Shown here piece after piece: positions 8,355 to 36,429 of a DNA stretch of 64,000 bases. Source of the stretch: an uncultured Pelagibacteraceae bacterium (GTDB lineage Bacteria > Pseudomonadota > Alphaproteobacteria > Pelagibacterales > Pelagibacteraceae); assembly GCA_902596375.1 (NCBI GenBank), contig CACJTU010000006.1, positions 2,398 to 66,397 of the forward strand, given 5' to 3'. Each line of letters begins with the position of its first letter. Within the stretch, counting starts at the first letter, position 1. A program made the translations under genes and the position numbers. Under the pieces are notes generated by a model, which had not been told where the DNA came from, did not search any database, and worked only from the letters and a program-made list of their open reading frames with translations.

Positions 8355-8382
8355 TGAATATATCTTAGCAAAAAAAATATTT

Positions 8383-9285: not shown

Positions 9286-9786
9286 TTATCTATAAATAGA
9301 AGTAAGTTCGTTATTTCCTGCTGCAACACAAGGAGATTTGAAGCAAGTACCAACAATCCATTCAGAACCAGGATCAGGCAAAAAATTTGAGGACATAACA
9401 AAGATCACCCCCATCTCAACTGATTGACCAGCTTTACCTTCAGCTTTTATTCTTGGATCAGGATCAGTTTTCACTTTTGAGTCATCAGAAAATGGATTTT
9501 CTATTTTTAAATTTTCATTGATATAATTAACAACTTTATCAGCTATCCATTCACCATTACATGGATCACCCCAAACAGTGAATTTACCTTCATCGTTATT
9601 ACCACATTTATTAATTTCATCATTAATTAGATCAACGACTTTGTTGTGATTTTCTTTTACTAAATTAGCTTTAGCTTCAACAGCTGGTCTTGTACTTGCT
9701 GTCCAAATTAACATACCAACTACAAAGATTGCAGACGCTGATACTAAAAATTCTAAAAATCCAAAATTTTTGAAATTAATTTTCAT
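9286..9786 (-). CDS. Membrane-anchored pilin-like hypothetical protein
   Basis: N-terminal KN-FGFLEFLV followed by a hydrophobic helix (F1...E5 spacing); four Cys including a C-terminal pair. Confidence 0.5.
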   Translation of the reverse strand: MKINFKNFGFLEFLVSASAIFVVGMLIWTASTRPAVEAKANLVKENHNKVVDLINDEINKCGNNDEGKFTVWGDPCNGEWIADKVVNYINENLKIENPFSDDSKVKTDPDPRIKAEGKAGQSVEMGVIFVMSSNFLPDPGSEWIVGTCFKSPCVAAGNNELTSIYR

Positions 9787-9787
9787 A

Positions 9788-10864: not shown

Positions 10865-11461
10865 GTGAATTTGACAATTAACATTCTCCTATCTTTTTTT
10901 AAGACCCTTGAGAAAATAAATACTTTTTTTTTAAGAATTGGAAGACAGTTTGCATGGATAGCAATACTTTTGATGGTGATTGTTATCTTGGTGCAAGTAT
11001 TTTTTAGATATGTATTAAATAATGCACTGCCATGGCCTGATGAGGTTGCTAGATTTTTGATGTTATGGATGACAGGATTGATTGCACCATCTGCGTATAG
11101 ATGGGGTGGATTTGTTTCTATTGATTTATTAGAGAGATTTTTACCAAAACTTATCTCCACATTATTAACTTTATTTTTATTAATCGTTTCTCTTTTCGTC
11201 TTAGTAATAGGTTTGGAATTAGGATTTAAACATATTAATGCTGGATGGATATTTAATTCTTCATCGATAAAGATTCCTTTTCATTTAATTGGTGGTAAAG
11301 CAGAACCAATAAAATTAGCTTGGATGTATATGTCATTACCTGTGGGAATTATTTTTTTAATTTCTGTGAATATAGAGTTAATTTTAAGAAATATTCTTAC
11401 TAATTTTACAAAGTTAGACTTGCCTGAAGATTACGATAAACAAAAGTTGGAGACGCAATAA
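10865..11461 (+). CDS. dctQ: TRAP transporter small permease
   Basis: QVFFRYVLN.AL.WPDE; about four TM segments; GTG start. Confidence 0.9.
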   Translation: MNLTINILLSFFKTLEKINTFFLRIGRQFAWIAILLMVIVILVQVFFRYVLNNALPWPDEVARFLMLWMTGLIAPSAYRWGGFVSIDLLERFLPKLISTLLTLFLLIVSLFVLVIGLELGFKHINAGWIFNSSSIKIPFHLIGGKAEPIKLAWMYMSLPVGIIFLISVNIELILRNILTNFTKLDLPEDYDKQKLETQ

Positions 11462-12750
11462 TGTTAGTTTGGTTTCTTCCTTTATTTTTATTATTTTTGT
11501 TAATTGGTTTACCTGTATTTTTTGGATTGTTAGCAGCACCAGGAATTTTGCTTTGGCTAAATGATCAAGCTAGAGATGGAGCTATGCTTTATAGAAATAT
11601 TTATAATGGAATAGATAGCTTCCCTTTGATGGCAATACCATTTTTTATGTTAGCAGGAGAGTTAATGAACAGAGGAGGAATAACTCATCGACTAGTTGAA
11701 TTTAGTCAGGCGATGATGGGCCACTTAAAAGGTGGATTGGCTCATGTCAATGTACTGACTTCAATGTTGTTTGCAGGTTTATCTGGTTCAGCTGTAGCTG
11801 ATACATCAGCAATTGGATCAATGCTTATTCCTGCAATGGAAAAGCAAGGCTATACAAAAAAATTTGCTGCTGCAATTACAGCAGCGAGTTCTGTAATTGG
11901 ACCTATAATTCCACCTTCTGGAATAATGATTATTTATGCATATGTAATGGGTGAGAGTGTTGCTGCATTATTTTTAGCAGGAATTGTACCTGGTATTTTA
12001 GTAGGAGTTAGTTTGATGGTCACAATAAAATTTATGGCCAAGAGATATAATTTTCCAGCAGTAACCGAAAAAACAACTTGGAGCCAAAGAGGCAAAGCAT
12101 CTCTTAAAGCTTTTTTCCCTTTAATGACACCTGTAATAATTTTAGGAGGTATTCTTGGTGGGATTTTCACCCCAACAGAAGCATCAGCTGTTGCAGCTGC
12201 TTACGCAATGTTTATTGGTCTATTTGTTTTGAAATCATTAAAATGGAAAGATGTTCCTAAAGTCATGACAAAAGCAGCAATGGTATCTTCAGTGGTTCTT
12301 CTTTTAGTTGGTGCCGCAATGGCTTTTAAAACAGTTGTAAGTTTATCACATGCACCTGAGCATCTTGCTGCGTTCGTTTTAGGATTAACTGATAATCCAT
12401 ATGTTTTATTATTTCTTATAAATATTTTATTATTTATTGTTGGAATGTTTTTAGATGCAGGTCCAGCTATAATTATTTTAGGACCAATTCTCGGTCCAGT
12501 TTTTGTTGAACTTGGAGTTCATCCTGTGCACTTTGCAATTATAATGTCGGTTAATTTAACAGTTGGTTTAGCAACTCCACCAATGGGTCTTGTCTTATTT
12601 GTTGCATCTTCTGTATCTGGGGAAAGAGTTGAAACAATAGCAAAAGCTATATTGCCATTCTTAGCAGTAGAGGCTATAGTTATATTTTTAATAACATATT
12701 TTCCGTCAATTTCGATGACGATTCCTTTGCTTACTGGATTCGCTAAATAA
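11461..12750 (+). CDS. dctM: TRAP transporter large permease
   Basis: SGSAVAD, IIPPS, FTPTEA, TPP.G motifs. Confidence 0.96.
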   Translation: MLVWFLPLFLLFLLIGLPVFFGLLAAPGILLWLNDQARDGAMLYRNIYNGIDSFPLMAIPFFMLAGELMNRGGITHRLVEFSQAMMGHLKGGLAHVNVLTSMLFAGLSGSAVADTSAIGSMLIPAMEKQGYTKKFAAAITAASSVIGPIIPPSGIMIIYAYVMGESVAALFLAGIVPGILVGVSLMVTIKFMAKRYNFPAVTEKTTWSQRGKASLKAFFPLMTPVIILGGILGGIFTPTEASAVAAAYAMFIGLFVLKSLKWKDVPKVMTKAAMVSSVVLLLVGAAMAFKTVVSLSHAPEHLAAFVLGLTDNPYVLLFLINILLFIVGMFLDAGPAIIILGPILGPVFVELGVHPVHFAIIMSVNLTVGLATPPMGLVLFVASSVSGERVETIAKAILPFLAVEAIVIFLITYFPSISMTIPLLTGFAK

Positions 12751-12841
12751 ATTTAATTATTTTTTTTACTAGTCGATAGACTCTCTAATTCAATTTAAGT
12801 ATAGTTTTCATACATAAATATTTAATGAGAGGGAAATAATT

Positions 12842-13894
12842 ATGAGTAAATTAATAAAATCATTTTTTTCATTATTATTCTTAATTAGTTTTACTGCATC
12901 TGTTTCAGCTGCGGATTACAACTTAAGAATGACAATGAACTCTAATGATCAAGATGAAGATTATGATGGTGCTGTAGTATTTAAAAACTATGTAGAAGCA
13001 GCTTCAAATGGAAAAATAGCTGTAGAATTATTTGTAGGTACGCAGCTTTGTTCAAAGGGTGCTGAATGTTTACAAGGTGTATCTGATGGAAGTATAGATA
13101 TTTATATTTCTACTTCTGGAGGTGCTGCAGGTGTATTTCCATATGTTCAAGTTTTAGACTTACCTTATCTAATGGCTGATGACAGAATTGCTGAAGATGT
13201 AATGCAAGGTGATTTTGTAAGAACAATGAGAAAAATGGCTCTAAAAGATTCTAATGACTCAATTAGATTGATGACAATTGGAAATACTGGAGGATGGAGA
13301 AATTTTGCTAATACAAAAAGAAGAGTTGCAAATCCATCTGACATGAAAGGTTTAAAAATCAGAACAGTTGTAGCTGATTTACCTCAGGAACTTGTAAGAG
13401 CATTAGGTGCATCTCCAACTCCTATTCCATGGCCGGAATTGTTTACATCATTTCAAACTGGTGTAGTTGAAGGATCTAAAAATGGAATAACTGACATTAT
13501 GAACATGAAGTTTCCTGATGCAGGTCTAAAATACGTTACTTTAGACGGTCATGCATACATGGGCGCATTATGGTGGATGAATAATGCAAAATATCAATCG
13601 ATGTCAACAGATCTTAAAAAAGTTGTGACTGATGGTTTCTATGCTTTGCAACAAGCAACTTTTGCTTCTCCTAAGAGAAAATCAATCAAAGCTTACGAGG
13701 ACTTTGTAGCAGGTGGTGGAGATTTATATGTTCCTACGCCTGATCAAAAAGCTAGTTTTAAAAAAGAAGCTAGCCCAGTGTATGATTGGTTTAAAGCTAA
13801 TGTTAAAGGTGGAAAAGAAATTTTCAACGCTTTAACTAAAGCGGTAGCTAAAGCAGAGAAAAAAGCATCGAGCGCATACAAAAAAGATTTGTAA
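12842..13894 (+). CDS. dctP: TRAP substrate-binding protein (DctP family)
   Basis: Signal peptide, D.KGLKIRT (conserved Arg), ELFTSFQTGVVEG.KN. Confidence 0.93.
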   Translation: MSKLIKSFFSLLFLISFTASVSAADYNLRMTMNSNDQDEDYDGAVVFKNYVEAASNGKIAVELFVGTQLCSKGAECLQGVSDGSIDIYISTSGGAAGVFPYVQVLDLPYLMADDRIAEDVMQGDFVRTMRKMALKDSNDSIRLMTIGNTGGWRNFANTKRRVANPSDMKGLKIRTVVADLPQELVRALGASPTPIPWPELFTSFQTGVVEGSKNGITDIMNMKFPDAGLKYVTLDGHAYMGALWWMNNAKYQSMSTDLKKVVTDGFYALQQATFASPKRKSIKAYEDFVAGGGDLYVPTPDQKASFKKEASPVYDWFKANVKGGKEIFNALTKAVAKAEKKASSAYKKDL

Positions 13895-13906
13895 TTTCAA
13901 ATTAAT

Positions 13907-13938
13907 ATAATGGGGCGGATTTTAGTTCGCCTCATTAT
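13907..13938 (+). terminator. Hairpin between convergent dctP and Sel1 genes
   Basis: ATAATGGGGCGGAT-TTTA-GTTCGCCTCATTAT with G-U pairs on the + strand. Confidence 0.65.
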
Positions 13939-14405
13939 CTAAAAGGATATATCCAAGATTTATAATCTTTTATGAGAATATGAGCTTTTTCAATTTGTTC
14001 AGGAGTCATTTTTTTAATAACTTCTTCCTGAGAAATTGCAGCATCAGGATCTCCACCAATAGCAGACAAACCATACCACATATAAGCTCTAATAAGATCG
14101 GGAGCAGGAAGTCCTCTACCAATTTCGTAATACCACCCAACACCAGATTGAGCACCAGGATGACCTTTCATAGAAGATCTGAGATACCATTCAAAAGCTC
14201 TAACATCATCTCTTTCAACACCAAGACCCATAGCGTACATAATTCCAATAAGCTCTTCAGCATCAGCATTACCAGACCTAGCTGCTGGCATAAGTTCTTC
14301 CATAGCTTCTTTAAATTTTCCTTCTTCCATCAAATCTCGAGCATTTTCTATTTCTGCAAAAACTACGGATGGAAGAAACAACAGTATAAAAAAATATTTA
14401 ATCAT
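13935..14405 (-). CDS. Exported Sel1-repeat protein
   Basis: Signal peptide; A...IG.MYAMGLGVERD...A..WY and AQ..VG.YYE.GRG repeats. Confidence 0.9.
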   Translation of the reverse strand: MIKYFFILLFLPSVVFAEIENARDLMEEGKFKEAMEELMPAARSGNADAEELIGIMYAMGLGVERDDVRAFEWYLRSSMKGHPGAQSGVGWYYEIGRGLPAPDLIRAYMWYGLSAIGGDPDAAISQEEVIKKMTPEQIEKAHILIKDYKSWIYPFR

Positions 14406-15743
14406 TTAAAAATAATAATATTTATAATTCCATTTTTAATTTCAGTAAATAAATCTTACGCAATTGATTTACCAAAACCATTAAAGAGCGAAGATTTTCA
14501 TGAAGTTGAGATAGAAAAAGTTAAAATTGGAAGACTTTTATTTCATGATAAAATTTTATCTGCAAATCGAAACATTGCTTGCGCAACCTGCCATAGTCAT
14601 GATCTAGGTGGTTCAGATGGACTTTCATTAGGAATTGGTGAAGGAGGACATGGTATTGGATTAGAAAGAACAGCTGGAACAGGAGATGATAAAATTAAAA
14701 AACGTATTCCTAGAAATGCTTTAGCATTATGGAATTTAGGATTTAAAGATATTACAACATTACTTCATGACGGAAGAGTGACTCAATCTGATATATTTGG
14801 TAATGGTTTTAATACCCCAGCGCAAGAACTACTTCCAAAAGGGCTTGATAATATAGTTGCAGTACAAGCTTTATTTCCAATGACAAGACAATTTGAAATG
14901 GCTGGAAATCCAGGTGAAAATGAAATTATAGGACTTGTTTCAAAAGTTGGTAAAGACAGTATGAGAATAGATAGAGTTTGGCCTGTAATTACTCATAGAA
15001 TAAGAGGAATTCCTGAATATGTTGAAATGTTTAAAAATGCTTTCGATGATGTTAATAATGCTTTAGATATAAATATTACACATATAGTAAATTCAATTGC
15101 AGCTTTTGAAATTCATGAATGGACCTCTTTTGACTCTCCATTTGATGAATATTTAAATGGAAATAAATCAGCTTTAAATTCAAATCAGATTGCAGGTATG
15201 AATTTATTCTATGGCAAAGCTAATTGTAGCTCATGTCATTCCGGGTCTTTATTGTCTGATCAAAAATTTCATTCAATAGGTATTCCACAATTCGGACCAG
15301 GCAGAACTAGACCTTTTGATCCTTATGCACGTGATGTTGGACGGATGGTTGAAACAGATGATTTGGATGACATGTATAAATTTAAAACACCTGCACTTAG
15401 AAATGTTTCTTTAACTGCACCTTACGGTCATAATGGTGCTTATCCAACACTTAAAGGCATAATTAAACATCATTTAAATCCAGTAGCCATGAATAGAAAT
15501 TGGAAACCTAAATATGCAAATTTACCTAGTGCTCCATGGTTAGAGCAAATAGATTTTGTAACTTTTTCTGACAAAAGAGAACAGGATAGAATTATTTCGA
15601 GTATAGACATTAAACCAATAGATTTAAGTGAAAAAGAAATTGATCAATTGGTATCTTTTTTAAAATCTCTAACTGGAAAAAGTGGAAATCAAAGACCCCT
15701 CGGTAAACCAGAAAAAGTACCAAGTGGATTAACAATTGATTAA
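14394..15743 (+). CDS. Periplasmic di-heme cytochrome c peroxidase/MauG-superfamily protein (start uncertain)
   Basis: GR.LFHD..LS, CATCH, PRNA, CSSCH, FKTPALRNV..TAPY.HNG. Signal-like segment at about 14394-14462 with no in-frame ATG/GTG/TTG nearby. Confidence 0.88.
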   Translation: MFNHLKIIIFIIPFLISVNKSYAIDLPKPLKSEDFHEVEIEKVKIGRLLFHDKILSANRNIACATCHSHDLGGSDGLSLGIGEGGHGIGLERTAGTGDDKIKKRIPRNALALWNLGFKDITTLLHDGRVTQSDIFGNGFNTPAQELLPKGLDNIVAVQALFPMTRQFEMAGNPGENEIIGLVSKVGKDSMRIDRVWPVITHRIRGIPEYVEMFKNAFDDVNNALDINITHIVNSIAAFEIHEWTSFDSPFDEYLNGNKSALNSNQIAGMNLFYGKANCSSCHSGSLLSDQKFHSIGIPQFGPGRTRPFDPYARDVGRMVETDDLDDMYKFKTPALRNVSLTAPYGHNGAYPTLKGIIKHHLNPVAMNRNWKPKYANLPSAPWLEQIDFVTFSDKREQDRIISSIDIKPIDLSEKEIDQLVSFLKSLTGKSGNQRPLGKPEKVPSGLTID

Positions 15744-17787: not shown

Positions 17788-18771
17788 TTAAATTAGTTTA
17801 GACAAATCCCTTTTATTTGTTTTAAAAGTAGGAAGAGGATATTTAAAAGCATATTTACGTGGAATACACTTTTCTTTTGCTTTTTCCCAGAGTGCTAACC
17901 ATTGTTTAAAATTCTGAATTTTGAGATTTTTTTTATTTTTACTTCTTACATAGAAATTCGGTAGCGGATCTCTTCCAGAAGGTTGGCCAGCTACATTATA
18001 TCTAAGGTCCGCACTTATTCTAAAATCATTTGATCTGTTCGGTAGAGAACAATGAATTGAATGTTTGTGTAAAAGAATTACATCCCCAACATCTGCTTCT
18101 AAGTGAATATGATGCATTTTATCCAGTAATTTGCTGTCTTTAATTTCTACTTGCCCTCTATATCCAGCAATATGATTTAATAATCCCATTTTATTAATTT
18201 TCTTAACAGTAATCATGCAACCATTTTTTTTAGTAGTTTTTGTAAAAGGTATCCATACAGTAACCATGTCGGTTAATTTTTGTCCTTTAGTATTGAGAAC
18301 AGCGGCATCCTGATGCCAGGGCGTTCGTCCACTTAAACCATCAAAAACAGAACCTTTTGGTAATTTTTTTTCAGGCTGTTTAATTCTAGTATTTTGTACT
18401 GGATTAGACATGATTTCTTTACCCAAAATTTTTTCAACAACATCTAAAATGTTTTTATTAGTAATTAAATTCCATAAAGATTGAGTAGCAAAATAATCAC
18501 TATCTTTCTTAACGTGATCTCTTGGTAATCTAGTATTAAAATACTGATCTAAATCATCAATTTTTAATTTTGATATATAAGAATATTTTTTTTTAAAATC
18601 TAAATTATGAACTTTTTTTACATCTTCTTTTTTTGCAAATTTTTGAATTAAACAATCCATTACAAATTCCATATCATTAAGGATTGGCTTTAAATCTCTT
18701 TGAAAGTTAAGCACGTTTTTTACTTTCAAATACCCTTGTTCAAATAATTTGTTTTTAAGATTATTTACCAT
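17788..18771 (-). CDS. PhyH-family Fe(II)/2OG dioxygenase
   Basis: TPWHQD, TVWIP, NGC, GDV......IHCS.PN.S..FR.S.DLRY. Confidence 0.87.
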   Translation of the reverse strand: MVNNLKNKLFEQGYLKVKNVLNFQRDLKPILNDMEFVMDCLIQKFAKKEDVKKVHNLDFKKKYSYISKLKIDDLDQYFNTRLPRDHVKKDSDYFATQSLWNLITNKNILDVVEKILGKEIMSNPVQNTRIKQPEKKLPKGSVFDGLSGRTPWHQDAAVLNTKGQKLTDMVTVWIPFTKTTKKNGCMITVKKINKMGLLNHIAGYRGQVEIKDSKLLDKMHHIHLEADVGDVILLHKHSIHCSLPNRSNDFRISADLRYNVAGQPSGRDPLPNFYVRSKNKKNLKIQNFKQWLALWEKAKEKCIPRKYAFKYPLPTFKTNKRDLSKLI

Positions 18772-18802: not shown

Positions 18803-19675
18803 TCAATTCTTAGGAGCAGTTGTTAAATAGTTTGCGTCATGAAAAGAAGTTAACATTCTTTTCTGGGTACTGATAATGTGCGGATAGTAAGCTGTTCCTT
18901 TATAATTCCAAATAACTGGTTTATTGAGTGCATAACTTCCATAAATAAAAAATCTTTTTGGACAGTTTTTTTCTATAAAACGTTTAACTCCATGATAGGA
19001 ATTTGGTGTAGATTGAAAAAATACCACAGTTCCTTTCTTTGGTGTGAAAGCTTTGACTACTTCCAATTCACTCATTTTTGGAAACCTTCTGAAACTTTTT
19101 CTTAAATTTTTTTTAGATTTTTTTCTATAAATTGTAAGCGATCCTCCATTTTTTTTTGGGATATCAGTTAGATAAATTAAGAAATTATACAATCTCGTAA
19201 TATCATCTCTATGAGGACGTAATCTGTATCCTCCTTTAGAAACCGAAAAATCAATATCTAAATTAACTTTTGGGTTAGTGTAATTGTTTCCTAATAATTT
19301 TTTTAATTCACTTGAATTTAATTTCTTTTTAATAGTAAATTTTTTTTGATTAAATATTTTTGGTTTGTGAGTGTTTGTCCAAGTTCCATCTTTAAAATTT
19401 TTAGAAAAAAGAGTTTCAATTTTTTTATAAAATGTTTTGCTATTAAAAAGTTTAAATAGTTTTGCAGAATTATTTGAAGATTTAATATAGTTATTAAAAT
19501 TTTTTGAGCCTTTGTTAATTCTGCTTCGACCACCCATAATCATGTCGTCAAAGGCTTTAGATGTACTAATCTCATCAATTAATAAATTACAAGTATTTTT
19601 CTCAATAACTTTATCTCCAACCAATACAGGAAAATTACTTTTAATTTTTTTTAATCGATTGATTTTAAGCATCAA
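18803..19675 (-). CDS. 2OG-Fe(II) oxygenase (prolyl-hydroxylase-like)
   Basis: LRPHRD (HxD), LIYL, GG.L.IY, NSYHGV, downstream R. Confidence 0.8.
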   Translation of the reverse strand: MMLKINRLKKIKSNFPVLVGDKVIEKNTCNLLIDEISTSKAFDDMIMGGRSRINKGSKNFNNYIKSSNNSAKLFKLFNSKTFYKKIETLFSKNFKDGTWTNTHKPKIFNQKKFTIKKKLNSSELKKLLGNNYTNPKVNLDIDFSVSKGGYRLRPHRDDITRLYNFLIYLTDIPKKNGGSLTIYRKKSKKNLRKSFRRFPKMSELEVVKAFTPKKGTVVFFQSTPNSYHGVKRFIEKNCPKRFFIYGSYALNKPVIWNYKGTAYYPHIISTQKRMLTSFHDANYLTTAPKN

Positions 19676-20616
19676 CTATACATACCTTCTTTAACCTTAA
19701 TCATTTTATACATCAGGTCATTTAAAGGTGTTTTTACTCCATGTTTTTTTCCTATTTTAGAAACTGCTCCACTAATAAAATCAATTTCAGTTTTTCTTTT
19801 GTACTGAACATCAAAAGCCATTGAAGATTTGTTAGTTTGCATAGAATCTACAATTTTATTAAACATAAATAGACATTCATCTTCAGAAACATTAACTCCA
19901 TCAGCAAGTGCCACTTCTCTTGTCTCTAAAATGATTTCTTTACCAAGTCCTCTTGAAACATCATTAGCCTTATTATTTACGTAAAGATCAGTGTGATGTA
20001 GATCAAATATAGCTGAAAGAGGACCTATTGCTGTTAGAGCAAAAAGCTTCATCCATTTTCTTTTTTTTACATCTTCAGCTGCAATCATTTCAAGATTATG
20101 TGCAGTAAAAGTATCAGCTATTTCCGTAATTCTCTCTGTTATTCCTCCTTCATATTCACCAATCCATGAAGGTAATGCGCCATGGTTCATTATATGACCT
20201 GGTCCTAAAATATTAGAAGCTTGTGTTGTTGTTCCACCGATTACTTTTTCATTTCCAACAATACTTTGAATTATTGCCTCATGGCCAATCCCATTTTGAA
20301 AGGACATGAAAACTGTCTTTTCACCAATAATATTTTTAATACTATTTAGAGCTGGTTCCAATGCAGTTGCTTTACACATAACAATCACTGCATCCATTTT
20401 ATTTAACGATGATGGATCAGAAGTAGCATTAACCTTAATTATACGATCTCCACCATGACCATCCATTTTCAAACCATCTTTGTTAATTGCATCCACATGT
20501 TCTTTCCAAACGTCAATTAAAGTTACATTCAAACCTTTTTCAGCTAGCAATCCTCCAAATAGACATCCCATAGCACCTGCGCCTAATACAGCTACTTTTA
20601 AATCTTTATTTATCAT
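19672..20616 (-). CDS. Ketopantoate reductase (PanE/ApbA) family 2-oxoacid reductase
   Basis: GAGAMG, QNG.GHE, W.KL, SSM..D....KTEIDFI.G. Confidence 0.88.
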   Translation of the reverse strand: MINKDLKVAVLGAGAMGCLFGGLLAEKGLNVTLIDVWKEHVDAINKDGLKMDGHGGDRIIKVNATSDPSSLNKMDAVIVMCKATALEPALNSIKNIIGEKTVFMSFQNGIGHEAIIQSIVGNEKVIGGTTTQASNILGPGHIMNHGALPSWIGEYEGGITERITEIADTFTAHNLEMIAAEDVKKRKWMKLFALTAIGPLSAIFDLHHTDLYVNNKANDVSRGLGKEIILETREVALADGVNVSEDECLFMFNKIVDSMQTNKSSMAFDVQYKRKTEIDFISGAVSKIGKKHGVKTPLNDLMYKMIKVKEGMYS

Positions 20617-20704
20617 CGTTACCTTATTTAAAATTATTTATGTATAGAAATTATATATATTATCTATAGACAATATGCAAAATAAATTATAGCTTATTAT
20701 CGTC

Positions 20705-21682
20705 ATGCAATTAAAAATAGAAAAAGGAACTTTTAAAGATTATCCATTAGAGGATATTTCAGATGCGTTAAGAAAAGGATTGTCTGAAAATTTCAAAAAC
20801 GTAGAGGTAGAAGTGGTAGATTGCCCAAATCTAAGAGATTGGGATTGTCCATCAGAAGGAATAAGTGGAAATCAAAAAATAATAGATGTTGGTGGAGAGC
20901 CATATATGCATGATCCAAAATTTATTGGTGCAGAATTTGACTATGAAGAAATATCTAAAATGATTGATTCTGAAAAATCTTATGCTTTAGGAGCTGGATC
21001 AGGTGCAATGTCATGTTTAAATGGTCATTGTGGAGAATTAGTTATTAATGAAAACTTAATAACTGATGAGTCTAAATCAATAATAGCAAGAGTAAGTCCA
21101 GAAAAAAAATGTATTGTTGAAAAGTATTCAGCAAAAAAACATGGTGGACTTGGAAACATTTATTATACAGACGGTAAACAGGGAAAAGTTATTAAAATAA
21201 AAATCAAAGGTAGAAATGGAGAACAAGGTTCTTTGCCTCAAGCAATGAGGTCTTCTTTATCAAAAAATTTAAAAATTAAAGATAATGAACATTTGTCTCT
21301 TGCTGGCGTATTTAGAGTATTAAATGGAAAAATAAGATCACATGTGCAACCTGATTATAAAGATATTAAACACGAGTATTACGATCCAAATCAAATGAAA
21401 TGTGTAAAAGATTTTCTTCAATTTTATGAACCGGTTGGACCAAAATTACAATGTTATTCTATTCTTTGGACTGGTGATCCTACTGGAGGAGAATTAAATC
21501 TAAGAGAGTCTGGTGAACATACTCATTTTCATTCTTACGAACATGAAAAAGATGCAGGACATTATCATTTTGACGTCACACCCGAAGAAATAGAATATGA
21601 AGGTTATTTTAATACTGCAACAGAAGTACATAGAGTTAATAACATTTATAAAGAACTATTAAGTAAAAATAGTATTGAATAG
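20705..21682 (+). CDS. DUF1907 / C11orf54 (PTD012)-family zinc enzyme
   Basis: GL.ENF..VEV.VVDCP.L, DVGG.PY, GAG, HV.PD, LR..EHTHFHS....AGHYHFD.TPEE.EYEGYF, matching the C11orf54 pattern with HxH...H Zn ligands. Confidence 0.8.
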   Translation: MQLKIEKGTFKDYPLEDISDALRKGLSENFKNVEVEVVDCPNLRDWDCPSEGISGNQKIIDVGGEPYMHDPKFIGAEFDYEEISKMIDSEKSYALGAGSGAMSCLNGHCGELVINENLITDESKSIIARVSPEKKCIVEKYSAKKHGGLGNIYYTDGKQGKVIKIKIKGRNGEQGSLPQAMRSSLSKNLKIKDNEHLSLAGVFRVLNGKIRSHVQPDYKDIKHEYYDPNQMKCVKDFLQFYEPVGPKLQCYSILWTGDPTGGELNLRESGEHTHFHSYEHEKDAGHYHFDVTPEEIEYEGYFNTATEVHRVNNIYKELLSKNSIE

Positions 21683-21710: not shown

Positions 21711-22127
21711 ATGAAAAGACAGTTCAAGTATCCTAAGCACTTCGAAGAACAAAAAAAAATTCCAAAACTTACTCAAAAAAGAATTCAATTAGCAGAAATA
21801 TCACTTGGAGATTTTGAAGGAAGATTAGCTAATGAATTATTAAATTGGTTTTCCTTAACCCCACAACATTGGATAATGTTACATATGGTTATGCTTGCTT
21901 ATTATAAAAATAAATCAATTACTAAAAATCAATTACTTAAAGTAATCGAGAAATCATATTTGACCTCAAACGTTTATATCGATACAGCAATTAAAAAAGG
22001 TTATTTTAGAATTATAAGAAACGAGAGAGACAAAAGATCTATATTTATTTTACCTTCAGTAATTACCATTAAAACTTTTGAGGAATTTATTGATAGGAGA
22101 GATATTCTTTACAAAGGGGTTAAATGA
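21711..22127 (+). CDS. Small winged-helix (MarR-like) protein
   Basis: C-terminal KKGY...RNERDKRS..I.P wing motif; 138 aa. Confidence 0.55.
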   Translation: MKRQFKYPKHFEEQKKIPKLTQKRIQLAEISLGDFEGRLANELLNWFSLTPQHWIMLHMVMLAYYKNKSITKNQLLKVIEKSYLTSNVYIDTAIKKGYFRIIRNERDKRSIFILPSVITIKTFEEFIDRRDILYKGVK

Positions 22128-22939
22128 AGAATATCTATACTTGGGCTGCAAAACCAGCAAAAAGAACTTTGACTGTTGGGGATTTAAAAGCAGCAAAAGG
22201 AAAAAGAAAATTTACACAAGTTACAGCGAATACTGTTGAAGAAGCCGATGCAGCTGAAAAGGCAGACTTTGACATGATTATATCAAATGCAAAAAACGTT
22301 ATTCCTGTAAGAGAAGGTTCAAAAAATTTATTTTTAACAGCTGCTTTGGTGTTGAATGAGTTTGTAACTGCAGAAGATATTATGCGTGGAGCTTTTAAAG
22401 CATTAGAGAATGGTGCTGATGCAGTTATGACACCAAGAAGTATGGACATAGTTGAAATGCTGGCTAAGGAAGATGTTCCTGTAATGGGACATTTAGGTTT
22501 AGTTCCAAGAAAATCTACTTGGATAGGTGGACTAAGAGCAGTTGGTAAAACAGCAAATGAAGCTTATGAGTTATTTCAAAAATTTAAAAGGCTAGAAGAT
22601 GCAGGAGCTTTTTCTGCTGAGTGTGAAGTAATACCTGAAAACGTAATGGGAGAAATTTCTAAACGAACAGATATTGTTACCGTCTCTTTAGGATCTGGAA
22701 GAAATGCAGATGTGATGTATTTATTTATGGAAGATATTTGTGGTGATACTGAAAATCCACCAAGACATTCCAAAGCTTATGGAAACTTATTAAAACTAAG
22801 AAATGAAATTAAAGTTGAAAGAGTTAAAGCGCTTAAAGCATTTAAAAAAGATTCGATGTCTGGAAAGTTTCCAGGTAAGAAAGAATCTTCTAATTTAGAT
22901 AAAAATCAGTTCAAAGAATTTTTAAATCAACTTGATTAA
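22124..22939 (+). CDS. Divergent PanB-like (ketopantoate hydroxymethyltransferase fold) protein
   Basis: PVMGHLGLVP, GG.RAVGK, LEDAGAF...EV, SLGSG. Lacks the GDS, DMPF and VKLEG motifs. Confidence 0.8.
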   Translation: MKNIYTWAAKPAKRTLTVGDLKAAKGKRKFTQVTANTVEEADAAEKADFDMIISNAKNVIPVREGSKNLFLTAALVLNEFVTAEDIMRGAFKALENGADAVMTPRSMDIVEMLAKEDVPVMGHLGLVPRKSTWIGGLRAVGKTANEAYELFQKFKRLEDAGAFSAECEVIPENVMGEISKRTDIVTVSLGSGRNADVMYLFMEDICGDTENPPRHSKAYGNLLKLRNEIKVERVKALKAFKKDSMSGKFPGKKESSNLDKNQFKEFLNQLD

Positions 22940-23730
22940 TAAGTAGCGTCGTCGTCTTTTTTAGACAAAGAACCTTTCATCTTATCTACAGTTGCTTTTG
23001 CGCCAGCGCTTAAAGCTCTCAAATCAGATGCTATTGTAACAAAATCAAAACCTTTTTTGATCATTTTAGTGGCATATTCTGTAGTACCGTTATGAATTCC
23101 TGCGAAAATATTATTTTTCTTTGCATGTTCTAAAATTCTCAAAATTTCAGAATAAGCTTTTGTTGTTTCAGCTCTATCAAATCCAGGTTTTTCACCTATT
23201 GCTAAACTTAAATCTGCTGGTCCAATATAAATACCATCGACACCTGGTGTAGACATAATCTCATCAAGATTATCTAAAGATTCTTTTGTTTCTATCATTG
23301 CTAATTTTAGTATTTCTTCATTAGCGTGATCCGCATAATCAGCTCCACCATAAATTAAACCTCTAATAGGACCAAAACTTCTGTAACCGTCAGGTGGATA
23401 CATGCACGCTTGAACAAAATTCTCTGCCTCTTTTTTATTACTTACCATCGGACAAACAATTCCATAACATCCAGCATCTAAAATTTTCATAATTTGACCT
23501 GGTTCATTCCAATTAACTCTAGCTAAAGGAGTTACATCTGTTGTTGATATTGTTTGAAGCATAGGAAGCGCATTACTGTAGTCAACTAATCCATGTTGCA
23601 TATCAATAGTTAAAGAGTCCCAACCTTGATGAGCCATTGCTTCAACTGAGGCTGTACTTGGAATAGCACACCAGCCGTTAATAACAGGTTTACCTTCCTT
23701 CATCATTTGTTTGATTTTATTTTTTCTCAT
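22936..23730 (-). CDS. HpcH/HpaI class II pyruvate aldolase
   Basis: D.QHG, ARV, LDAG..G..CPMV, YPP.G.RS, MIET, GPADL. Confidence 0.92.
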   Translation of the reverse strand: MRKNKIKQMMKEGKPVINGWCAIPSTASVEAMAHQGWDSLTIDMQHGLVDYSNALPMLQTISTTDVTPLARVNWNEPGQIMKILDAGCYGIVCPMVSNKKEAENFVQACMYPPDGYRSFGPIRGLIYGGADYADHANEEILKLAMIETKESLDNLDEIMSTPGVDGIYIGPADLSLAIGEKPGFDRAETTKAYSEILRILEHAKKNNIFAGIHNGTTEYATKMIKKGFDFVTIASDLRALSAGAKATVDKMKGSLSKKDDDATY

Positions 23731-23733
23731 TTT

Positions 23734-25176
23734 CTAGATTTTTAAACCCATGTGAGTGTATTTCACATTTAGATAATCTTTTATGGCACCTGAACCACCT
23801 TCACGTCCATAACCAGTTTGTTTTATTCCTCCAAAAGGTGCCTCAGCAATAGCAACAACTCCAGTGTTAACTGCAACACAACCAGACTCTAATTTTTCAG
23901 ATCCAATGTGAGCTTTATCCATAGAGTTAGTGTATAAATAACTACATAATCCTAAGTCATTATCATTTGCTCTTTCAATTACTTCATCAAAAGTTTTAAA
24001 AGTTAAAATTGGTACTAGTGGACCAAAAGGCTCTTCTTTCATGATTGTAAAATTGTCTTTAACATCATCAAAGACTGTTGGTTCATAATAGTATCCTTTG
24101 TTGAAACCAGAAGGTCTTTGTCCACCCATTAATACTTTTGCTCCTTCTTTTTTAGTAGTTTCAACTAGTTTTTCTATTTCTTCCAATCTTTTAGCGGTAG
24201 TTAAAGGTCCAAGATCTACACCTTCGTCCATACCGTTTCCAATTTTTAATTTTTTTGCCCTTTCAATAAAGGCATTAACAAAATCCTCTTTTCTATTTTC
24301 TTGGATATAAAATCTATTAGGTGAAATACAGACCTGACCGTTATTTCTAAATTTTCCAGTTATTGCTATATCAGCTACTTTGTTCATATCTACATCTTCA
24401 CATACAATAAAAGGTGAGTGTCCGCTTAGCTCCATAGTAACTCTTTGAACTTTATCAGCTGCTTTTTTTAAAATAATTTTACCAACTCTAGTCGATCCAG
24501 TAACTGAAACTTTTTTAATTATATCCGATTCCATTAATTCATTTGATATTTCAGCGGGATCACCTGACAAAAGACTAACAACACCATCAGGTACTCCAGC
24601 TTCTTTGCAAATGTTTACTAATTCCATTACAGCACCAGGGGTAATTACGTCAGGCTTACAAATTACAGAACATCCTGCAGCTAGGGCAGTAGAAATTTTT
24701 CTAGATGCTAAAACTATTGGGAAATTCCAAGGAACTAAAGCTGCAACAACTCCCACGGGTTGATAATAAACATGGACTCTAGTATCTGGAAATCTACTTT
24801 GTTGTGTTTGACCATAAATTCTTTTTGTTTCTTCAGCATTCCACTCAAAAATATCAGCTCCACCACCAACTTCACCAACTGCTTCTGCAAGAGGCTTTCC
24901 AACTTCAAGAGTTAACCATTTTGCTATAACATCTTTTTTTTCTCTCATCATGTCTGCAATTTTTCTAAGCACGTAAGCTCTTTGCCATGGTGCAGTGTTT
25001 TTCCAAACTTCCAAACCTTTTTCTGCAGACTTTAATGCTTTTTGTACTTCAATAGATGAAGCTTTTGATGCTTTTCCAATTACTTCTTCTGTTGCAGGGT
25101 TGATTACGTCGTAAGTTTCTTTTTTTTCAGCTTGTTGCCATTTACCGTCAATGAATTGTCCAAATTTTTCGTACAT
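23734..25176 (-). CDS. NAD(P)-dependent aldehyde dehydrogenase (SSADH / alpha-ketoglutaric semialdehyde dehydrogenase type)
   Basis: PWNFP, TGST.VG, MELSGH, NGQVCISP, EEPFGP, PFGG.K.TG.GREGG. Confidence 0.92.
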   Translation of the reverse strand: MYEKFGQFIDGKWQQAEKKETYDVINPATEEVIGKASKASSIEVQKALKSAEKGLEVWKNTAPWQRAYVLRKIADMMREKKDVIAKWLTLEVGKPLAEAVGEVGGGADIFEWNAEETKRIYGQTQQSRFPDTRVHVYYQPVGVVAALVPWNFPIVLASRKISTALAAGCSVICKPDVITPGAVMELVNICKEAGVPDGVVSLLSGDPAEISNELMESDIIKKVSVTGSTRVGKIILKKAADKVQRVTMELSGHSPFIVCEDVDMNKVADIAITGKFRNNGQVCISPNRFYIQENRKEDFVNAFIERAKKLKIGNGMDEGVDLGPLTTAKRLEEIEKLVETTKKEGAKVLMGGQRPSGFNKGYYYEPTVFDDVKDNFTIMKEEPFGPLVPILTFKTFDEVIERANDNDLGLCSYLYTNSMDKAHIGSEKLESGCVAVNTGVVAIAEAPFGGIKQTGYGREGGSGAIKDYLNVKYTHMGLKI

Positions 25177-25268
25177 AGAATTTATTTTTAAGTTTACTTA
25201 ATTAGGTTTTTTAATTTATAAATAGAATTATATATAAACACTATACATATTAAAAGATAAACATATTT

Positions 25269-27113
25269 ATGAAAAAAATTACCCTCACATGTGCTCATGC
25301 GATAGTTAAATATTTAATTGCTCAGAAAATATTAATTAACGGTAAAAAAGAACCTTTATTTCCAGGTGTCTTTGGAATTTTTGGACATGGAAATGTAGCG
25401 TGTCTAGGTCAAGCACTAGAGGAAAATCAAAAAGAACTTCCAACTTATAGAGGACACCATGAACAAAATATGGCTCTTACAGGAATTGGCTATGCTAGAG
25501 CAAAAAGAAGACAACAAATTTTTGTAGCAACATCCTCTGTTGGACCTGGGGCAACAAATATGGTTACAGCTGCTGCAGTTGCTATGAGTAACAGATTACC
25601 AATTTTATTTTTACCTGGAGACACTTATGCAAATAGAATGCCTGACCCAGTATTGCAACAAGTTGAGCATTTTAATAACCCTGGAATTACAGCTAATGAT
25701 GCATTTAAACCAGTTACAAGATATTTTGATAGAATAACAAGACCAGAGCAGATTATTCAATCATTCCCGGCAGCTGTTCAAACAATGTTAGATCCTGCAG
25801 ATTGTGGTCCTGCATGTATCGCTTTAAGTCAAGATATACAAGGTCAAACTTTTGATTATCCTGAGGAATTTTTTAAGGAAAGAGTCCACGCGATCAGAAG
25901 ACCAAGACCAGATGAATTTCAAATCAAAGAGGCAGCAGAAAAAATTAAATTATCAAAAAATCCAATTATAATTTCTGGTGGTGGAGTTTTTTACTCAGAT
26001 GCAATGGATGAGTTAAGTCAATTTGCGATTAAACATAATATACCAGTCACTCAAACTGTAATGGGATATTCTACAATGAAAAGAGATCATTCTCATTTTG
26101 CAGGCCAGATTGGCGGTTTAGGCGGAAAAAATACAAATACATTAGCAAAAGAAACAGATTTAGCAATTGCAGTTGGAACTAAACTTGCAGATTTTACAAC
26201 TGGATCATGGGCAAATTTTGAAAACAAAGATTTTAAACTAGTTTCAATAAATGTATCAAGATTTGATGCTAACAAACATTTAGCACAAGCTGTCATTGGA
26301 GATGCTAAAGTTTCATTAACAGAGCTTTCACTAGCATTAGGCAGTTGGAAAGCTGGAGAAGAATGGAATAAAAAATCTCAAACTGAACTCAAATCTTGGA
26401 ATGAACATATAGATAAAGAGAGTGCGCCAACAAATCAAGAAGTTCCAAGTTATGTTCAGGTAATTGGTGCAATTTATAGAAACTCTGACCCAACAGATAT
26501 AGCTGTTACTGCAGCAGGAGGTTTGGTTGGTGAAGTTGTTCAAGTTTGGAGACCTAGAGAATTAAATACTCATGAAACAGAGTGGGGTTTTAGTTGTATG
26601 AGTTATGAAATTTCAGGAGCACTTGGAATAAAAATGGCTAATCCTGATAAAGAAGTAATTTCTTTTGTAGGAGATGGTTCTTATCTTCTAAATAATACAG
26701 ATATTTATTCATCAGTTATTACAAAAAACAAATTGATAATTATAGTTTGTGATAATGGAGGGTTTGCAGTTATCAATCGACTTCAACTATTTAAAGGTGG
26801 TAAAGAATATAATAACTTATTAAAGAGCTCTAATACTCCAGGATTAGTTGATGTTGATTTTGCAAAACATGCAGAAAGTATGGGAGCTAAATCTGAACAT
26901 GTTAATTCAATTTCAGATCTTGAAGCTGCATTTAAGAGAGCAAAAGCATCTGATGTAACATACGTTATTTCAATAAAAACTCATGCTTATAAGTGGGTTG
27001 AGGGTTCAGCTTTTTGGGATAGCCCAACACTTGAAATTCCTAAAACTAAAGAAAATGAAGAGGCTTTAAAACTTTATAAAGAAGGAAAAGGCAAACAAAG
27101 ACAAGGTGTATAA
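25269..27113 (+). CDS. iolD: 3D-(3,5/4)-trihydroxycyclohexane-1,2-dione acylhydrolase
   Basis: IFGHGNV, EQ.MA, GD.YA.R.PDPVLQQ.E, EWGFSCM.YE, ThDP motif GDGSY...DN. Confidence 0.95.
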   Translation: MKKITLTCAHAIVKYLIAQKILINGKKEPLFPGVFGIFGHGNVACLGQALEENQKELPTYRGHHEQNMALTGIGYARAKRRQQIFVATSSVGPGATNMVTAAAVAMSNRLPILFLPGDTYANRMPDPVLQQVEHFNNPGITANDAFKPVTRYFDRITRPEQIIQSFPAAVQTMLDPADCGPACIALSQDIQGQTFDYPEEFFKERVHAIRRPRPDEFQIKEAAEKIKLSKNPIIISGGGVFYSDAMDELSQFAIKHNIPVTQTVMGYSTMKRDHSHFAGQIGGLGGKNTNTLAKETDLAIAVGTKLADFTTGSWANFENKDFKLVSINVSRFDANKHLAQAVIGDAKVSLTELSLALGSWKAGEEWNKKSQTELKSWNEHIDKESAPTNQEVPSYVQVIGAIYRNSDPTDIAVTAAGGLVGEVVQVWRPRELNTHETEWGFSCMSYEISGALGIKMANPDKEVISFVGDGSYLLNNTDIYSSVITKNKLIIIVCDNGGFAVINRLQLFKGGKEYNNLLKSSNTPGLVDVDFAKHAESMGAKSEHVNSISDLEAAFKRAKASDVTYVISIKTHAYKWVEGSAFWDSPTLEIPKTKENEEALKLYKEGKGKQRQGV

Positions 27114-27119
27114 ACCTTT

Positions 27120-28277
27120 ATGAGTAAAATTTTTAAAGTCGGTCTAATTGGCTGTGGTCATATTTCTGAAACCTATTTTAGAGCCCAGGAGTACTTTAAT
27201 AATATAAGAATAGTCAAATGTGCAGATATAAACATGGATGCTGCTAAAAAATGTGCAATTCACTACAATATTGAGGCTGTAACGGTTGATGAGCTTTTAA
27301 AAGATAAAGAAATTGAAATAATCTTAAATTTAACAATACCAGGTGCACATTATCAAGTTTCTAAATTGGCTCTTGAAAATGGAAAACATTCTTATGCCGA
27401 AAAACCATTAGCAGTTAATTTTGAAGATGGAAAAAATTTAGTTGAACTTGCTAATAAAAAAAATCTTTACATAGGAAACGCGCCAGATACCTTTTTGGGT
27501 GGTGGTATTCAAAAAACTAGAGAGCTAATTGATAATGGTGTCATTGGGGATATTAAATTAGGTAATGCTATATTTGCTTTTCCAGGTGTACAATCTTATC
27601 ATCCAAATCCAGAGTCTTGGTTTGCGGAAAATGAAGGTGGACCAGTTATTGATATGGGGCCGTACTATTTGACAGCACTAGTAAATTTAATTGGTCCAGC
27701 AAAACAGGTTCAAGGAAGGTGTACAAAAGTTTTTGAAGAAAGAGAAATTGGAATTGGTCCAAAAAAAGGTCAAAAATTTAAAGTTGAAACACCAACAACT
27801 TACTTAGCAACTATACAATTTGAAAATGATTGCATAATTCAAATAACTTTATCTTTTGATGTTGTAGCTCATCAAAGAAATCATATTGAGCTTTATGGAA
27901 ACAAAGGGTCAATAATTGTTCCTGATCCAAACATGTTTGGTGGATCTGCTTTTGTTTCAGTGACAGCTGGAGGTAATTGGGGAGAGCACAAAACAGACAT
28001 GATGCCTTTAGGTAAGATTAATATAAAGAGTCAAAGTTCTAGAGCAAATGAGTCACCTACCAATGCAAATTATAGAGGAGCTGGTTTATCAGAAATGGCT
28101 TATGCAATTGAAAATAATTTAGAGCACAGATGTAATGGAGAGCTATCTCTTCATGTTTTAGATATAATAGATTCTACTATGAGAGCTTCACAAACTGGTA
28201 TCCCACAAGAAATAAAAACAACATGCAAGAAACCAAAACCATTTACGTTAGAAGAAATTAAAAAAATAATGAATTAA
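27120..28277 (+). CDS. Gfo/Idh/MocA oxidoreductase
   Basis: GCG.IS..Y, NLTIP..H, EKP, APDTFLG, DMGPYY, PDPN.FGG. Confidence 0.9.
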   Translation: MSKIFKVGLIGCGHISETYFRAQEYFNNIRIVKCADINMDAAKKCAIHYNIEAVTVDELLKDKEIEIILNLTIPGAHYQVSKLALENGKHSYAEKPLAVNFEDGKNLVELANKKNLYIGNAPDTFLGGGIQKTRELIDNGVIGDIKLGNAIFAFPGVQSYHPNPESWFAENEGGPVIDMGPYYLTALVNLIGPAKQVQGRCTKVFEEREIGIGPKKGQKFKVETPTTYLATIQFENDCIIQITLSFDVVAHQRNHIELYGNKGSIIVPDPNMFGGSAFVSVTAGGNWGEHKTDMMPLGKINIKSQSSRANESPTNANYRGAGLSEMAYAIENNLEHRCNGELSLHVLDIIDSTMRASQTGIPQEIKTTCKKPKPFTLEEIKKIMN

Positions 28278-35362: not shown

Positions 35363-35431
35363 TTTTTTCTTTACGTCTTGTAGCAGATTATGTTTAAATT
35401 ATTAAATATAAATTAACTAAAGAGGGAAATA

Positions 35432-36406: not shown

Positions 36407-36429
36407 TCTAATCAAAAGTACATTTGAAT

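What the first reader, a model, noticed from the sequence alone, without database searches (positions are those of the whole stretch)
20705..21682. Bacterial homologue of animal C11orf54 (DUF1907) inside an inositol/sugar-acid catabolic region
Seen: the 325-aa protein carries C11orf54/PTD012 signatures (VVDCP.L, DVGG.P, HV.PD, EHTHFHS..GHYH.D.TP...EYEGYF). Knowledge: DUF1907 is known mainly from eukaryotes. As I recall, human C11orf54 was recently assigned as the Zn-dependent 3-keto-L-gulonate decarboxylase of the inositol/glucuronate-to-L-xylulose route. Inference: here it may decarboxylate a beta-keto sugar acid made by one of the neighbouring dehydrogenases, giving an animal-like, non-phosphorylated route in a marine bacterium. 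It may also reflect cross-domain gene transfer.
Basis: partly seen in the sequence, partly recalled or inferred. Interest (0 to 1): 0.85.

Follow-up and report, generated by a model that had tools for sequence, protein, structure and literature searches.

The report
SAR11 decarboxylase with its own dehydrogenase
An abundant ocean bacterium carries a true relative of the human enzyme that makes L-xylulose, but from a separate branch that nearly always sits beside, or is fused to, a ketopantoate-reductase-like enzyme, which likely points to an undescribed two-step route for breaking down an organic acid that is still unidentified.

Summary
Observation confirmed: window 20705-21682(+) encodes a full-length DUF1907/C11orf54 protein (Pfam E=5e-61; model matches human 1XCR at Z=42 versus 15.6 for acetolactate decarboxylase). 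The Zn histidines and the two essential residues (H217, R263 equivalents) are kept. The host is a SAR11 bacterium. The protein belongs to a separate branch (two-residue insert after the catalytic Arg, no C-terminal Asp), and a clade with animal-type sequences is rejected. Its steady partner is not an inositol gene or CRYL1 but a PanE/ApbA-type oxidoreductase: the same 69 of 301 Pelagibacterales genomes carry both, it lies directly upstream in 7 of 10 non-SAR11 loci, and it is fused to DUF1907 in eukaryote-like genes. 56 iolD-positive genomes lack the gene, and in two other genera the module lies apart from iolD/iolE. Best reading: a coupled NAD-dependent dehydrogenase and Zn beta-keto-acid decarboxylase acting on an unidentified hydroxy acid; no activity was tested. 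Cross-domain transfer is likely; its direction is unresolved. Bacterial DUF1907 is mentioned in passing in print, and this scan found the same module before in two other genomes.

The parts
20705..21682 (+). DUF1907/C11orf54-family protein, 325 aa; predicted Zn site H272/H274/H286, catalytic H213 and R267; branch signature L-R-x-S-G-E-H-T-H; no C-terminal Asp
   Evidence: Pfam; PDB; alignment; model and fold; trees
19672..20616 (-). PanE/ApbA-family oxidoreductase, 314 aa, divergent from the DUF1907 gene; the constant partner; Asp35 at the end of the second Rossmann strand suggests NAD(H) (inferred)
   Evidence: Pfam, TIGR00745 above cut-off; same 69 of 301 genomes; adjacent in 76 of 80 loci; orthologous-looking domain fused to DUF1907; D35 invariant
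20617..20704 (.). 88-bp AT-rich spacer between the two divergent genes; likely shared promoter region (inferred; the consensus scan found no site here)
   Evidence: sequence; scan
17788..18771 (-). PhyH-family Fe(II)/2-oxoglutarate dioxygenase; SAR11-specific member of the module
   Evidence: Pfam; present in 68 of the 69 carrier genomes; no close match in 10 non-SAR11 loci
18803..19675 (-). 2OG-Fe(II) oxygenase (2OG-FeII_Oxy_3); frequent but optional member
   Evidence: Pfam; 66 of 80 loci; not seen in the fetched stretches of G563, G527, G586
21711..22127 (+). 138-aa protein, weak winged-helix (SarA/Rot-like) hit; possible regulator
   Evidence: 77 of 80 loci; Pfam PF22381 E=0.001, below cut-off
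22124..22939 (+). Divergent PanB-like protein (below the panB cut-off); optional member
   Evidence: 63 of 80 loci; a second PanB-like gene lies on contig C10
22936..28277 (.). Flanking inositol module, separable from the finding: HpcH aldolase (22936-23730 -), aldehyde dehydrogenase (23734-25176 -), iolD (25269-27113 +), Gfo/Idh/MocA (27120-28277 +); iolG and iolE lie at 6211-7224 and 8383-9285
   Evidence: the same block occurs without DUF1907 in 20 of 20 fetched iolD loci of non-carriers

Best explanation
The gene encodes a DUF1907 protein of a branch distinct from animal C11orf54 that likely works as a zinc-dependent decarboxylase, removing CO2 from an alpha-hydroxy-beta-keto acid that its constant partner, a PanE-type oxidoreductase, is predicted to make from a still unidentified hydroxy acid. 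Shown: family, fold, retained Zn and catalytic residues, separate branch, and the partnership (co-occurrence, adjacency, fusion). Inferred step 1: the PanE-like enzyme uses NAD+ (Asp at the end of the second Rossmann strand) to oxidise a carbinol, giving an unstable 2-hydroxy-3-oxo acid. It does so either as a normal 2-hydroxyacid dehydrogenase on a 2,3-dihydroxy diacid (tartrate-like) or with shifted beta-regiochemistry like CRYL1. Inferred step 2: DUF1907 binds the product on Zn (H272/H274/H286) with H213 and R267 and releases CO2 and a hydroxyketone. Inferred step 0, SAR11 only: the PhyH dioxygenase hydroxylates a precursor to supply the hydroxy acid. It is the same logic as CRYL1 plus BKGD, built with a different dehydrogenase and probably a different substrate.
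For: Residues essential in human BKGD (H217, R263; Zn H266/H268/H278; PMC12337341) map to H213, R267, H272, H274, H286. R267, H272, H274 and H286 are invariant in 44 of 44 aligned family members and H213 in 43 of 44. Both characterised families with this fold decarboxylate alpha-hydroxy-beta-keto acids (fold). Partner: the PanE-like gene is found in exactly the same 69 of 301 genomes. It is the adjacent upstream ORF in 76 of 80 SAR11 loci; the other 4 lie at locus ends. It lies directly upstream and co-directional in 7 of 10 non-SAR11 metagenome loci. 8 of 8 longer homologues carry ApbA domains, plus 4 of 29 scanned representatives. The fused domains are 38-47% identical to the window's PanE-like protein, against 26% for the genome's other PanE homologue. 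The other branch has an analogous 3HCDH-DUF1907 fusion (P0147; rotifers in PMC12337341). PanE-annotated proteins include NADH-dependent D-2-hydroxyacid dehydrogenases (bioRxiv 10.1101/2024.01.05.573888, passages).
Against: No activity or substrate was tested. Characterised PanE-family enzymes act at the alpha carbon, so making a beta-keto acid needs a diacid substrate or changed regiochemistry. The C-terminal Asp that aids human catalysis is absent (0 of 120 close homologues end in Asp). 3 of 10 non-SAR11 loci lack PanE in the fetched DNA (L163, L169, L171). Within SAR11, co-occurrence is inflated by physical linkage and kinship. No downstream enzyme for a hydroxyketone product is conserved in the module.
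Confidence: 0.58

Rival explanations
1. One reading: it is a BKG decarboxylase in an animal-like inositol/glucuronate to L-gulonate to L-xylulose route.
For: Same fold and catalytic residues as human BKGD. iolG, iolE and iolD flank it in this window. 65 of 69 carriers have iolD. SAR11 lacks IolB/IolC, so a non-standard downstream route exists.
Against: SAR11 bacteria open the ring with IolE/IolD, not to glucuronate. The iolD-HpcH-ALDH-Gfo block is complete without DUF1907 in 20 of 20 non-carrier loci; 56 iolD-positive genomes lack it. No CRYL1-sized gene in the own genome or 3 of 5 carriers; no FGGY kinase found in 2 of 5 carriers. A clade with animal-type rows is rejected.
Confidence: 0.08
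2. The PanE-like enzyme works as a reductase on a 2,3-diketo acid such as 2,3-diketo-L-gulonate (an ascorbate breakdown product), giving a 3-keto-aldonate that DUF1907 decarboxylates to L-xylulose; a phosphate-free counterpart of the E. coli YiaK/SgbH route (recalled).
For: Fits the known alpha-carbon chemistry of both families without change. A TRAP permease gene lies directly upstream of the pair in L164, and a TRAP system lies 7-10 kb away in about 22 of 80 SAR11 loci.
Against: No conserved kinase or reductase for L-xylulose in the module; FGGY kinases not found in 2 of 5 carriers. Does not explain the PhyH gene in 68 of 69 carriers.
Confidence: 0.08
3. Reverse order: DUF1907 first decarboxylates an oxaloacetate-type beta-keto diacid (for example oxaloglycolate or a branched analogue) made elsewhere, and the PanE-like enzyme then reduces the resulting 2-keto acid.
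For: PanE-family enzymes are typically 2-keto-acid reductases. In the fusions DUF1907 is N-terminal.
Against: No conserved upstream dehydrogenase is seen across lineages. The NAD-type fingerprint fits oxidation at least as well (inferred).
Confidence: 0.12
4. This branch is not a decarboxylase but a Zn hydrolase (lactonase, esterase or amidase) that frees a 2-hydroxy acid, such as a pantoate-like acid, for the PanE-like dehydrogenase and the PanB-like enzyme.
For: Human PTD012 has weak esterase activity. The active-site loop is remodelled and the C-terminal Asp lost. PanE-like plus PanB-like genes suggest a 2-hydroxy acid with a hydroxymethyl branch.
Against: The two residues that are specific and essential for decarboxylation are kept. 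The PanB-like gene is optional (63 of 80 loci) and was not found in 10 non-SAR11 loci.
Confidence: 0.12

Closest known systems
[quoted passage not shown]
   Same: [quoted passage not shown]
   Different: Separate clade; two-residue insert between the Arg and the Glu-His motif; a longer loop after HxxPD; no C-terminal Asp; the partner is PanE/ApbA-type rather than CRYL1 (3HCDH); no evidence for DCXR/SORD/XYLB-type downstream genes in the module.
Bacterial alpha-acetolactate decarboxylase (EC 4.1.1.5; PDB 4BT2/4BT3, 5XNE)
   Same: Related fold (Z 14-16), three-His Zn site, alpha-hydroxy-beta-keto acid chemistry.
   Different: 8-15% identity, no sequence-level hit; it has Arg/Glu where DUF1907 has His/Arg (PMC12337341); about 90 residues shorter.
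PanE-like D-2-hydroxyacid dehydrogenases (Enterococcus and Lactococcus enzymes; Pseudomonas KPR2) - for the partner gene
   Same: ApbA/ApbA_C architecture above the TIGR00745 cut-off; catalytic Lys, Ser and Glu positions kept.
   Different: A distinct subfamily tied to DUF1907; conserved Asn positions in the substrate helix are changed; no coupling to a decarboxylase was found in my searches.
Tartrate dehydrogenase/decarboxylase and 6-phosphogluconate dehydrogenase (recalled)
   Same: Oxidative decarboxylation through an unstable beta-keto acid.
   Different: Those do both steps in one active site; here two unrelated folds are predicted to share the work.

Membership tests
DUF1907 / C11orf54 family (PF08925) | Full-length match above the Pfam cut-off | tested here: met
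   207 bits vs 25, profile 1-285/285
DUF1907 / C11orf54 family (PF08925) | PTD012 fold | tested here: met
   Foldseek TM 0.81, E=5.7e-31; Z 42.0, rmsd 2.1 over 298 residues
DUF1907 / C11orf54 family (PF08925) | Three Zn-binding histidines | tested here: met
   H272, H274, H286 invariant in 44 of 44; metal binding itself not tested
BKG decarboxylase orthologues (EC 4.1.1.34) | Essential His (H217) | tested here: met
   H213 aligns with it
BKG decarboxylase orthologues (EC 4.1.1.34) | Essential Arg (R263) in the same position | tested here: inconclusive
   R267 invariant and aligned in the multiple alignment, but followed by a two-residue insert; the pairwise alignment pairs R263 with N265; no coordinates to check
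BKG decarboxylase orthologues (EC 4.1.1.34) | C-terminal Asp (D315), strictly kept in metazoans | tested here: not met
   The protein ends in Glu; 0 of 120 SAR11-type and 0 of 120 other bacterial-type homologues end in Asp
BKG decarboxylase orthologues (EC 4.1.1.34) | Groups with animal sequences in the family tree | tested here: not met
   Separate clade 100/99; AU p=6e-7 against joining SAR11 with 13 animal-type rows (group named after seeing the tree; only 2 of the 13 rows carry an animal name)
BKG decarboxylase orthologues (EC 4.1.1.34) | Co-occurs with CRYL1 (L-gulonate 3-dehydrogenase) | tested here: not met
   No stand-alone 3HCDH gene found in the own genome (87% complete) or 3 of 5 near-complete carriers; 2 of 5 have a 315-aa one far from the locus, identity untested
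BKG decarboxylase orthologues (EC 4.1.1.34) | Decarboxylates 3-keto-L-gulonate | not testable with these tools
   needs an enzyme assay
Alpha-acetolactate decarboxylase | Sequence match and Arg/Glu catalytic pair | tested here: not met
   No Pfam or PDB sequence hit; His/Arg as in BKGD; fold related only
Core myo-inositol (iol) pathway gene | Present wherever iolD/iolE are, and linked to them | tested here: not met
   56 of 121 iolD-positive genomes lack it; no iolD/iolE in the 15-20 kb fetched around it in 8 of 8 genomes of two other genera
Pantothenate biosynthesis (panE/panB) for the neighbours | PanB above the equivalog cut-off; sole copies in the genome | tested here: not met
   TIGR00222 90 bits vs 207.55; other PanE- and PanB-like genes on contigs C16 and C10 (not scored by HMM)

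The most novel reading that the evidence does not exclude
A dehydrogenase-decarboxylase pair assembled independently of the animal CRYL1/BKGD pair and shared across domains (SAR11, marine gammaproteobacteria, marine eukaryotes with a fused gene) degrades an abundant but unrecognised marine metabolite. In SAR11 the PhyH dioxygenase would oxidise a carbon branch (for example on a C-methyl or C-carboxy cyclitol of algae), the PanE-like enzyme would act as a beta-hydroxyacid dehydrogenase, a regiochemistry new for its family, and DUF1907 would remove the branch as CO2 and feed an inosose into the neighbouring IolE/IolD route, much as sterol C4-demethylation works.
Probability: 0.1. Interest if true: 0.8.

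Novelty: new variant of a known kind. Interest (0 to 1): 0.5.

Why it matters
DUF1907 received its first function only in 2025, from animals. This shows a second, well-separated branch with a different partner enzyme, carried by about a quarter of sampled SAR11 genomes (69 of 301), by marine gammaproteobacteria and, as a fusion, by eukaryote-like genes. Streamlined SAR11 genomes keep few optional catabolic genes, so the pair marks a dissolved organic compound that matters in the sea. Two small soluble enzymes and a simple NADH/CO2 assay make that compound directly searchable. It also corrects two likely misannotations (ester hydrolase; ketopantoate reductase) and warns against transferring EC 4.1.1.34 to bacterial DUF1907 proteins.

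Tried and rejected
Physical complex: ESMFold2 on DUF1907 plus the PanE-like protein gave no support (score 0.00); this is no evidence either way. Expression: four marine metatranscriptome runs hold contigs covering both genes, but contigs cannot show transcription and no silent control was laid, so it is not used as evidence. Promoter/terminator scan: 24 sites versus 29 expected, none in the spacer. Protein atlas: no result for P0001 or P0300. The PhyH-like domain fused to DUF1907 in P0129/P0285/P0197 is not similar to either window dioxygenase (P0129 tested, E>1), so it is not counted as a link. DUF1907 as a replacement for IolB/IolC was my first idea: rejected because IolB is missing in carriers and non-carriers alike (1 of 301) and the iolD block is unchanged without it. 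Pantothenate synthesis and acetolactate decarboxylase membership were rejected (membership table). The phylum sample found no DUF1907 in 300 other Pseudomonadota genomes, but named gammaproteobacterial MAG proteins exist, so it is rare, not SAR11-only. Trees: of 164 candidate proteins, 71 were kept (at least 230 aligned positions and an EHxH motif) plus 7 locus proteins; 26 name prefixes were dropped and 18 rows added. The Rx3 labels of P0162 and P0197 are pattern artefacts; both have R-L-E-H. The original PTD012 structure paper was not held.

Full report
Observation. The stretch 20705-21682 (+) is a single 325-aa ORF that holds all the motifs quoted. It matches Pfam DUF1907 over the whole profile (E=5e-61) and human PTD012 (1XCR) by sequence (E=1.2e-40). 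It also matches by predicted structure (pLDDT 95.7; TM 0.81; Z 42.0 against 15.6 for the best acetolactate decarboxylase). All 80 loci kept from the genome collection are titled Pelagibacteraceae or Pelagibacter, and the gene's composition is that of the genome. NCBI already names such proteins 'DUF1907 domain-containing protein [Candidatus Pelagibacter sp.]'.

What is known. [quoted passage not shown] It binds Zn with H266/H268/H278, needs H217 and R263, and is helped by the C-terminal D315. The word 'bacteri' does not occur in its main text; its supplementary alignment figure could not be seen and one supplement file was cut. [quoted passage not shown] PMC3597751 lists DUF1907 among marine metagenome DUFs (one passage). 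Searches for DUF1907, BKGD terms, and SAR11/Pelagibacter with inositol terms (listings only) showed no paper on a bacterial member or a PanE partner; most subscription papers are not covered.

Active site. In a 44-sequence alignment spanning the family, H213, R267, H272, H274 and H286 correspond to human H217, R263, H266, H268 and H278. R267 and the three Zn histidines are invariant, and H213 is in 43 of 44. Two differences mark the SAR11 type: two extra residues between the Arg and the Glu-His (L-R-x-S-G-E-H versus L-R-x-E-H), and no terminal Asp. The pairwise alignment with 1XCR places R263 against N265 instead, so the exact position of the Arg is inferred.

Family tree. Of the 150 best representatives, 25 have the long motif, 65 the short one and 60 are fragments or neither. 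In the careful tree (78 rows) the long-motif sequences form one clade (100/99) that holds SAR11 (100/100), other bacteria and eukaryote-like proteins. Fish C11orf54 lies in another clade (100/95). Forcing SAR11 together with 13 animal-type rows is rejected (p=6e-7; the group was named after seeing the tree). Adding gammaproteobacterial proteins (Woeseiaceae, Arenicella) keeps all bacterial rows in the long-motif clade (SH-aLRT 99, quick tree), with an unresolved base. That the fused genes are eukaryotic is inferred: one cluster of this clade has a EukProt member, and several fused ORFs break at the same Val codon where an intact relative runs on, as at an intron. Transfer between domains is therefore likely, not from animals, and of unknown direction. 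Within SAR11 the tree follows the three genera.

Distribution and neighbours. DUF1907 was found in 69 of 301 Pelagibacterales genomes (57 of 212 of high quality) and in 0 of 300 other sampled Pseudomonadota. In the same 301 genomes the PanE-like neighbour occurs in exactly the same 69, and the PhyH dioxygenase in 68 of them plus one genome where it lies at a contig end. iolD occurs in 121: 65 carriers and 56 non-carriers (the tally includes the unpublished genome G411). Kin are not independent, and linkage inflates these overlaps. In Pelagibacter the module PhyH - 2OG oxygenase - PanE-like | DUF1907 - 138 aa - (PanB-like) is inserted in the inositol island. In 20 of 20 fetched non-carrier loci the block HpcH-ALDH-iolD-Gfo stands without it. 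In 8 of 8 carriers of two other genera the module lies with a Liv-type ABC transporter, EamA, an MhpD-like protein and, further on, a CoA ligase, a MenB/BadI-like hydrolase, an enolase-family enzyme and a CitE-like lyase, with no iolD or iolE in the fetched DNA. Against a clean separation: two of these regions carry Gfo/Idh/MocA genes resembling the window's (64-65% and 34-36% identity) some 15 kb away; two non-SAR11 loci have an iolG-like gene (30%) next to DUF1907; and 7 of the 8 carriers have iolD elsewhere (16 of 24 genomes of those two genera have it).

The partner. Outside SAR11 the PanE-like gene lies directly upstream of DUF1907 in 7 of 10 metagenome loci, in one case behind a TRAP permease. 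All 8 longer homologues carry ApbA domains: seven are DUF1907-ApbA fusions, and P0306 is a read-through of panE into DUF1907. Four more fusions appear among 29 scanned representatives. These domains are 38-47% identical to the window's protein and share its motifs, against 26% for the genome's other PanE homologue. They have Asp where that homologue has Arg at the end of the second Rossmann strand, which by established Rossmann-fold rules suggests NAD(H). PanE-annotated enzymes with other 2-hydroxyacid substrates are known (bioRxiv 10.1101/2024.01.05.573888, passages). The short-motif branch has the parallel fusion with a CRYL1-like domain (P0147).

The animal-like route. A CRYL1-sized gene was not found in the own genome (87% complete) nor in 3 of 5 near-complete carriers, and FGGY kinases were not found in 2 of 5. 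SAR11 uses IolE/IolD rather than inositol oxygenase chemistry.

Mechanism. Most likely (0.58) the two enzymes act in sequence. NAD-dependent oxidation of a hydroxy acid gives an unstable alpha-hydroxy-beta-keto acid, and Zn-assisted decarboxylation then gives a hydroxyketone, with PhyH supplying the substrate in SAR11. Family, fold, residues, branch and partnership are shown; both reactions, their order and the substrate are inferred. Rivals are the reverse order (0.12), a hydrolase role (0.12), reduction of 2,3-diketogulonate (0.08) and the animal route (0.08).

Verdict. It is a real DUF1907 member and works like BKG decarboxylase, but fails the tests for BKGD orthology (tree, terminal Asp, CRYL1 partner): a new variant of a known kind. 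Bacterial occurrence as such is already noted; the branch and its PanE partner were not found in print. This scan reported the same module in two other genomes; I had the PanE link before reading those notes, took the fusion lead from one, and tested both claims here. Interest 0.5.

Noticed in passing
window 22936-28277, 6211-10753; L131-L137, L143-L162: SAR11 inositol route without IolB or IolC: iolD in 121 of 301 genomes, a KduI/IolB match in only 1 (weak, with a stop), no IolC above cut-off in the own genome or 5 others. iolD sits with an HpcH aldolase, an aldehyde dehydrogenase and a Gfo/Idh/MocA gene in 26 of 27 fetched loci (the other is cut by a contig end), usually with a D-2-hydroxyacid dehydrogenase beside iolE. 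This suggests an undescribed phosphate-free lower pathway for 5-deoxyglucuronate; possibly a stronger lead than the finding itself. The iolD tally includes unpublished G411.
   Followed up: partly
P0129, P0285, P0197: A PhyH-like dioxygenase domain is fused in front of DUF1907 in eukaryote-like proteins of both branches; P0129's domain is not similar to the window's dioxygenases.
   Followed up: partly
P0147: A 3HCDH (CRYL1-like)-DUF1907 fusion of the short-motif branch that does not group with the animal clade, so possibly a second origin of the fusion described from rotifers.
   Followed up: no
L123:10543-11322, L130:8691-9461: A divergent MhpD/4-oxalocrotonate decarboxylase-like protein with no Pfam hit (PDB E=7e-5) is the divergent neighbour of DUF1907 in two SAR11 genera.
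   Followed up: partly
L175, L176, L129, L130: CoA ligase, MenB/BadI-like hydrolase, enolase-family enzyme, CitE-like lyase and Gfo genes follow the PanE-like gene in these genera, hinting at an alicyclic or branched acid substrate.
   Followed up: partly
window 22124-22939: PanB-like protein far below the panB cut-off with a divergent N-terminal part; optional in the module; function unexplained.
   Followed up: partly
window 9286-9786: 166-aa protein with no Pfam hit that lies between iolE and the 2-hydroxyacid dehydrogenase in many SAR11 inositol loci.
   Followed up: no
window 10865-15743: TRAP transporter followed by a Sel1-repeat gene and a MauG-like di-haem protein, present in about 22 of 80 carrier loci.
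   Followed up: no
window 34367-38415 and 47234-48319: PdxA-like dehydrogenase next to a Tct tricarboxylate transporter, and a tartrate dehydrogenase above the TIGR02089 cut-off, in the same island.
   Followed up: no
L177 (G442): The PhyH gene is in two pieces on opposite strands at a contig end; likely an assembly artefact that explains the one PhyH-positive, DUF1907-negative genome.
   Followed up: yes
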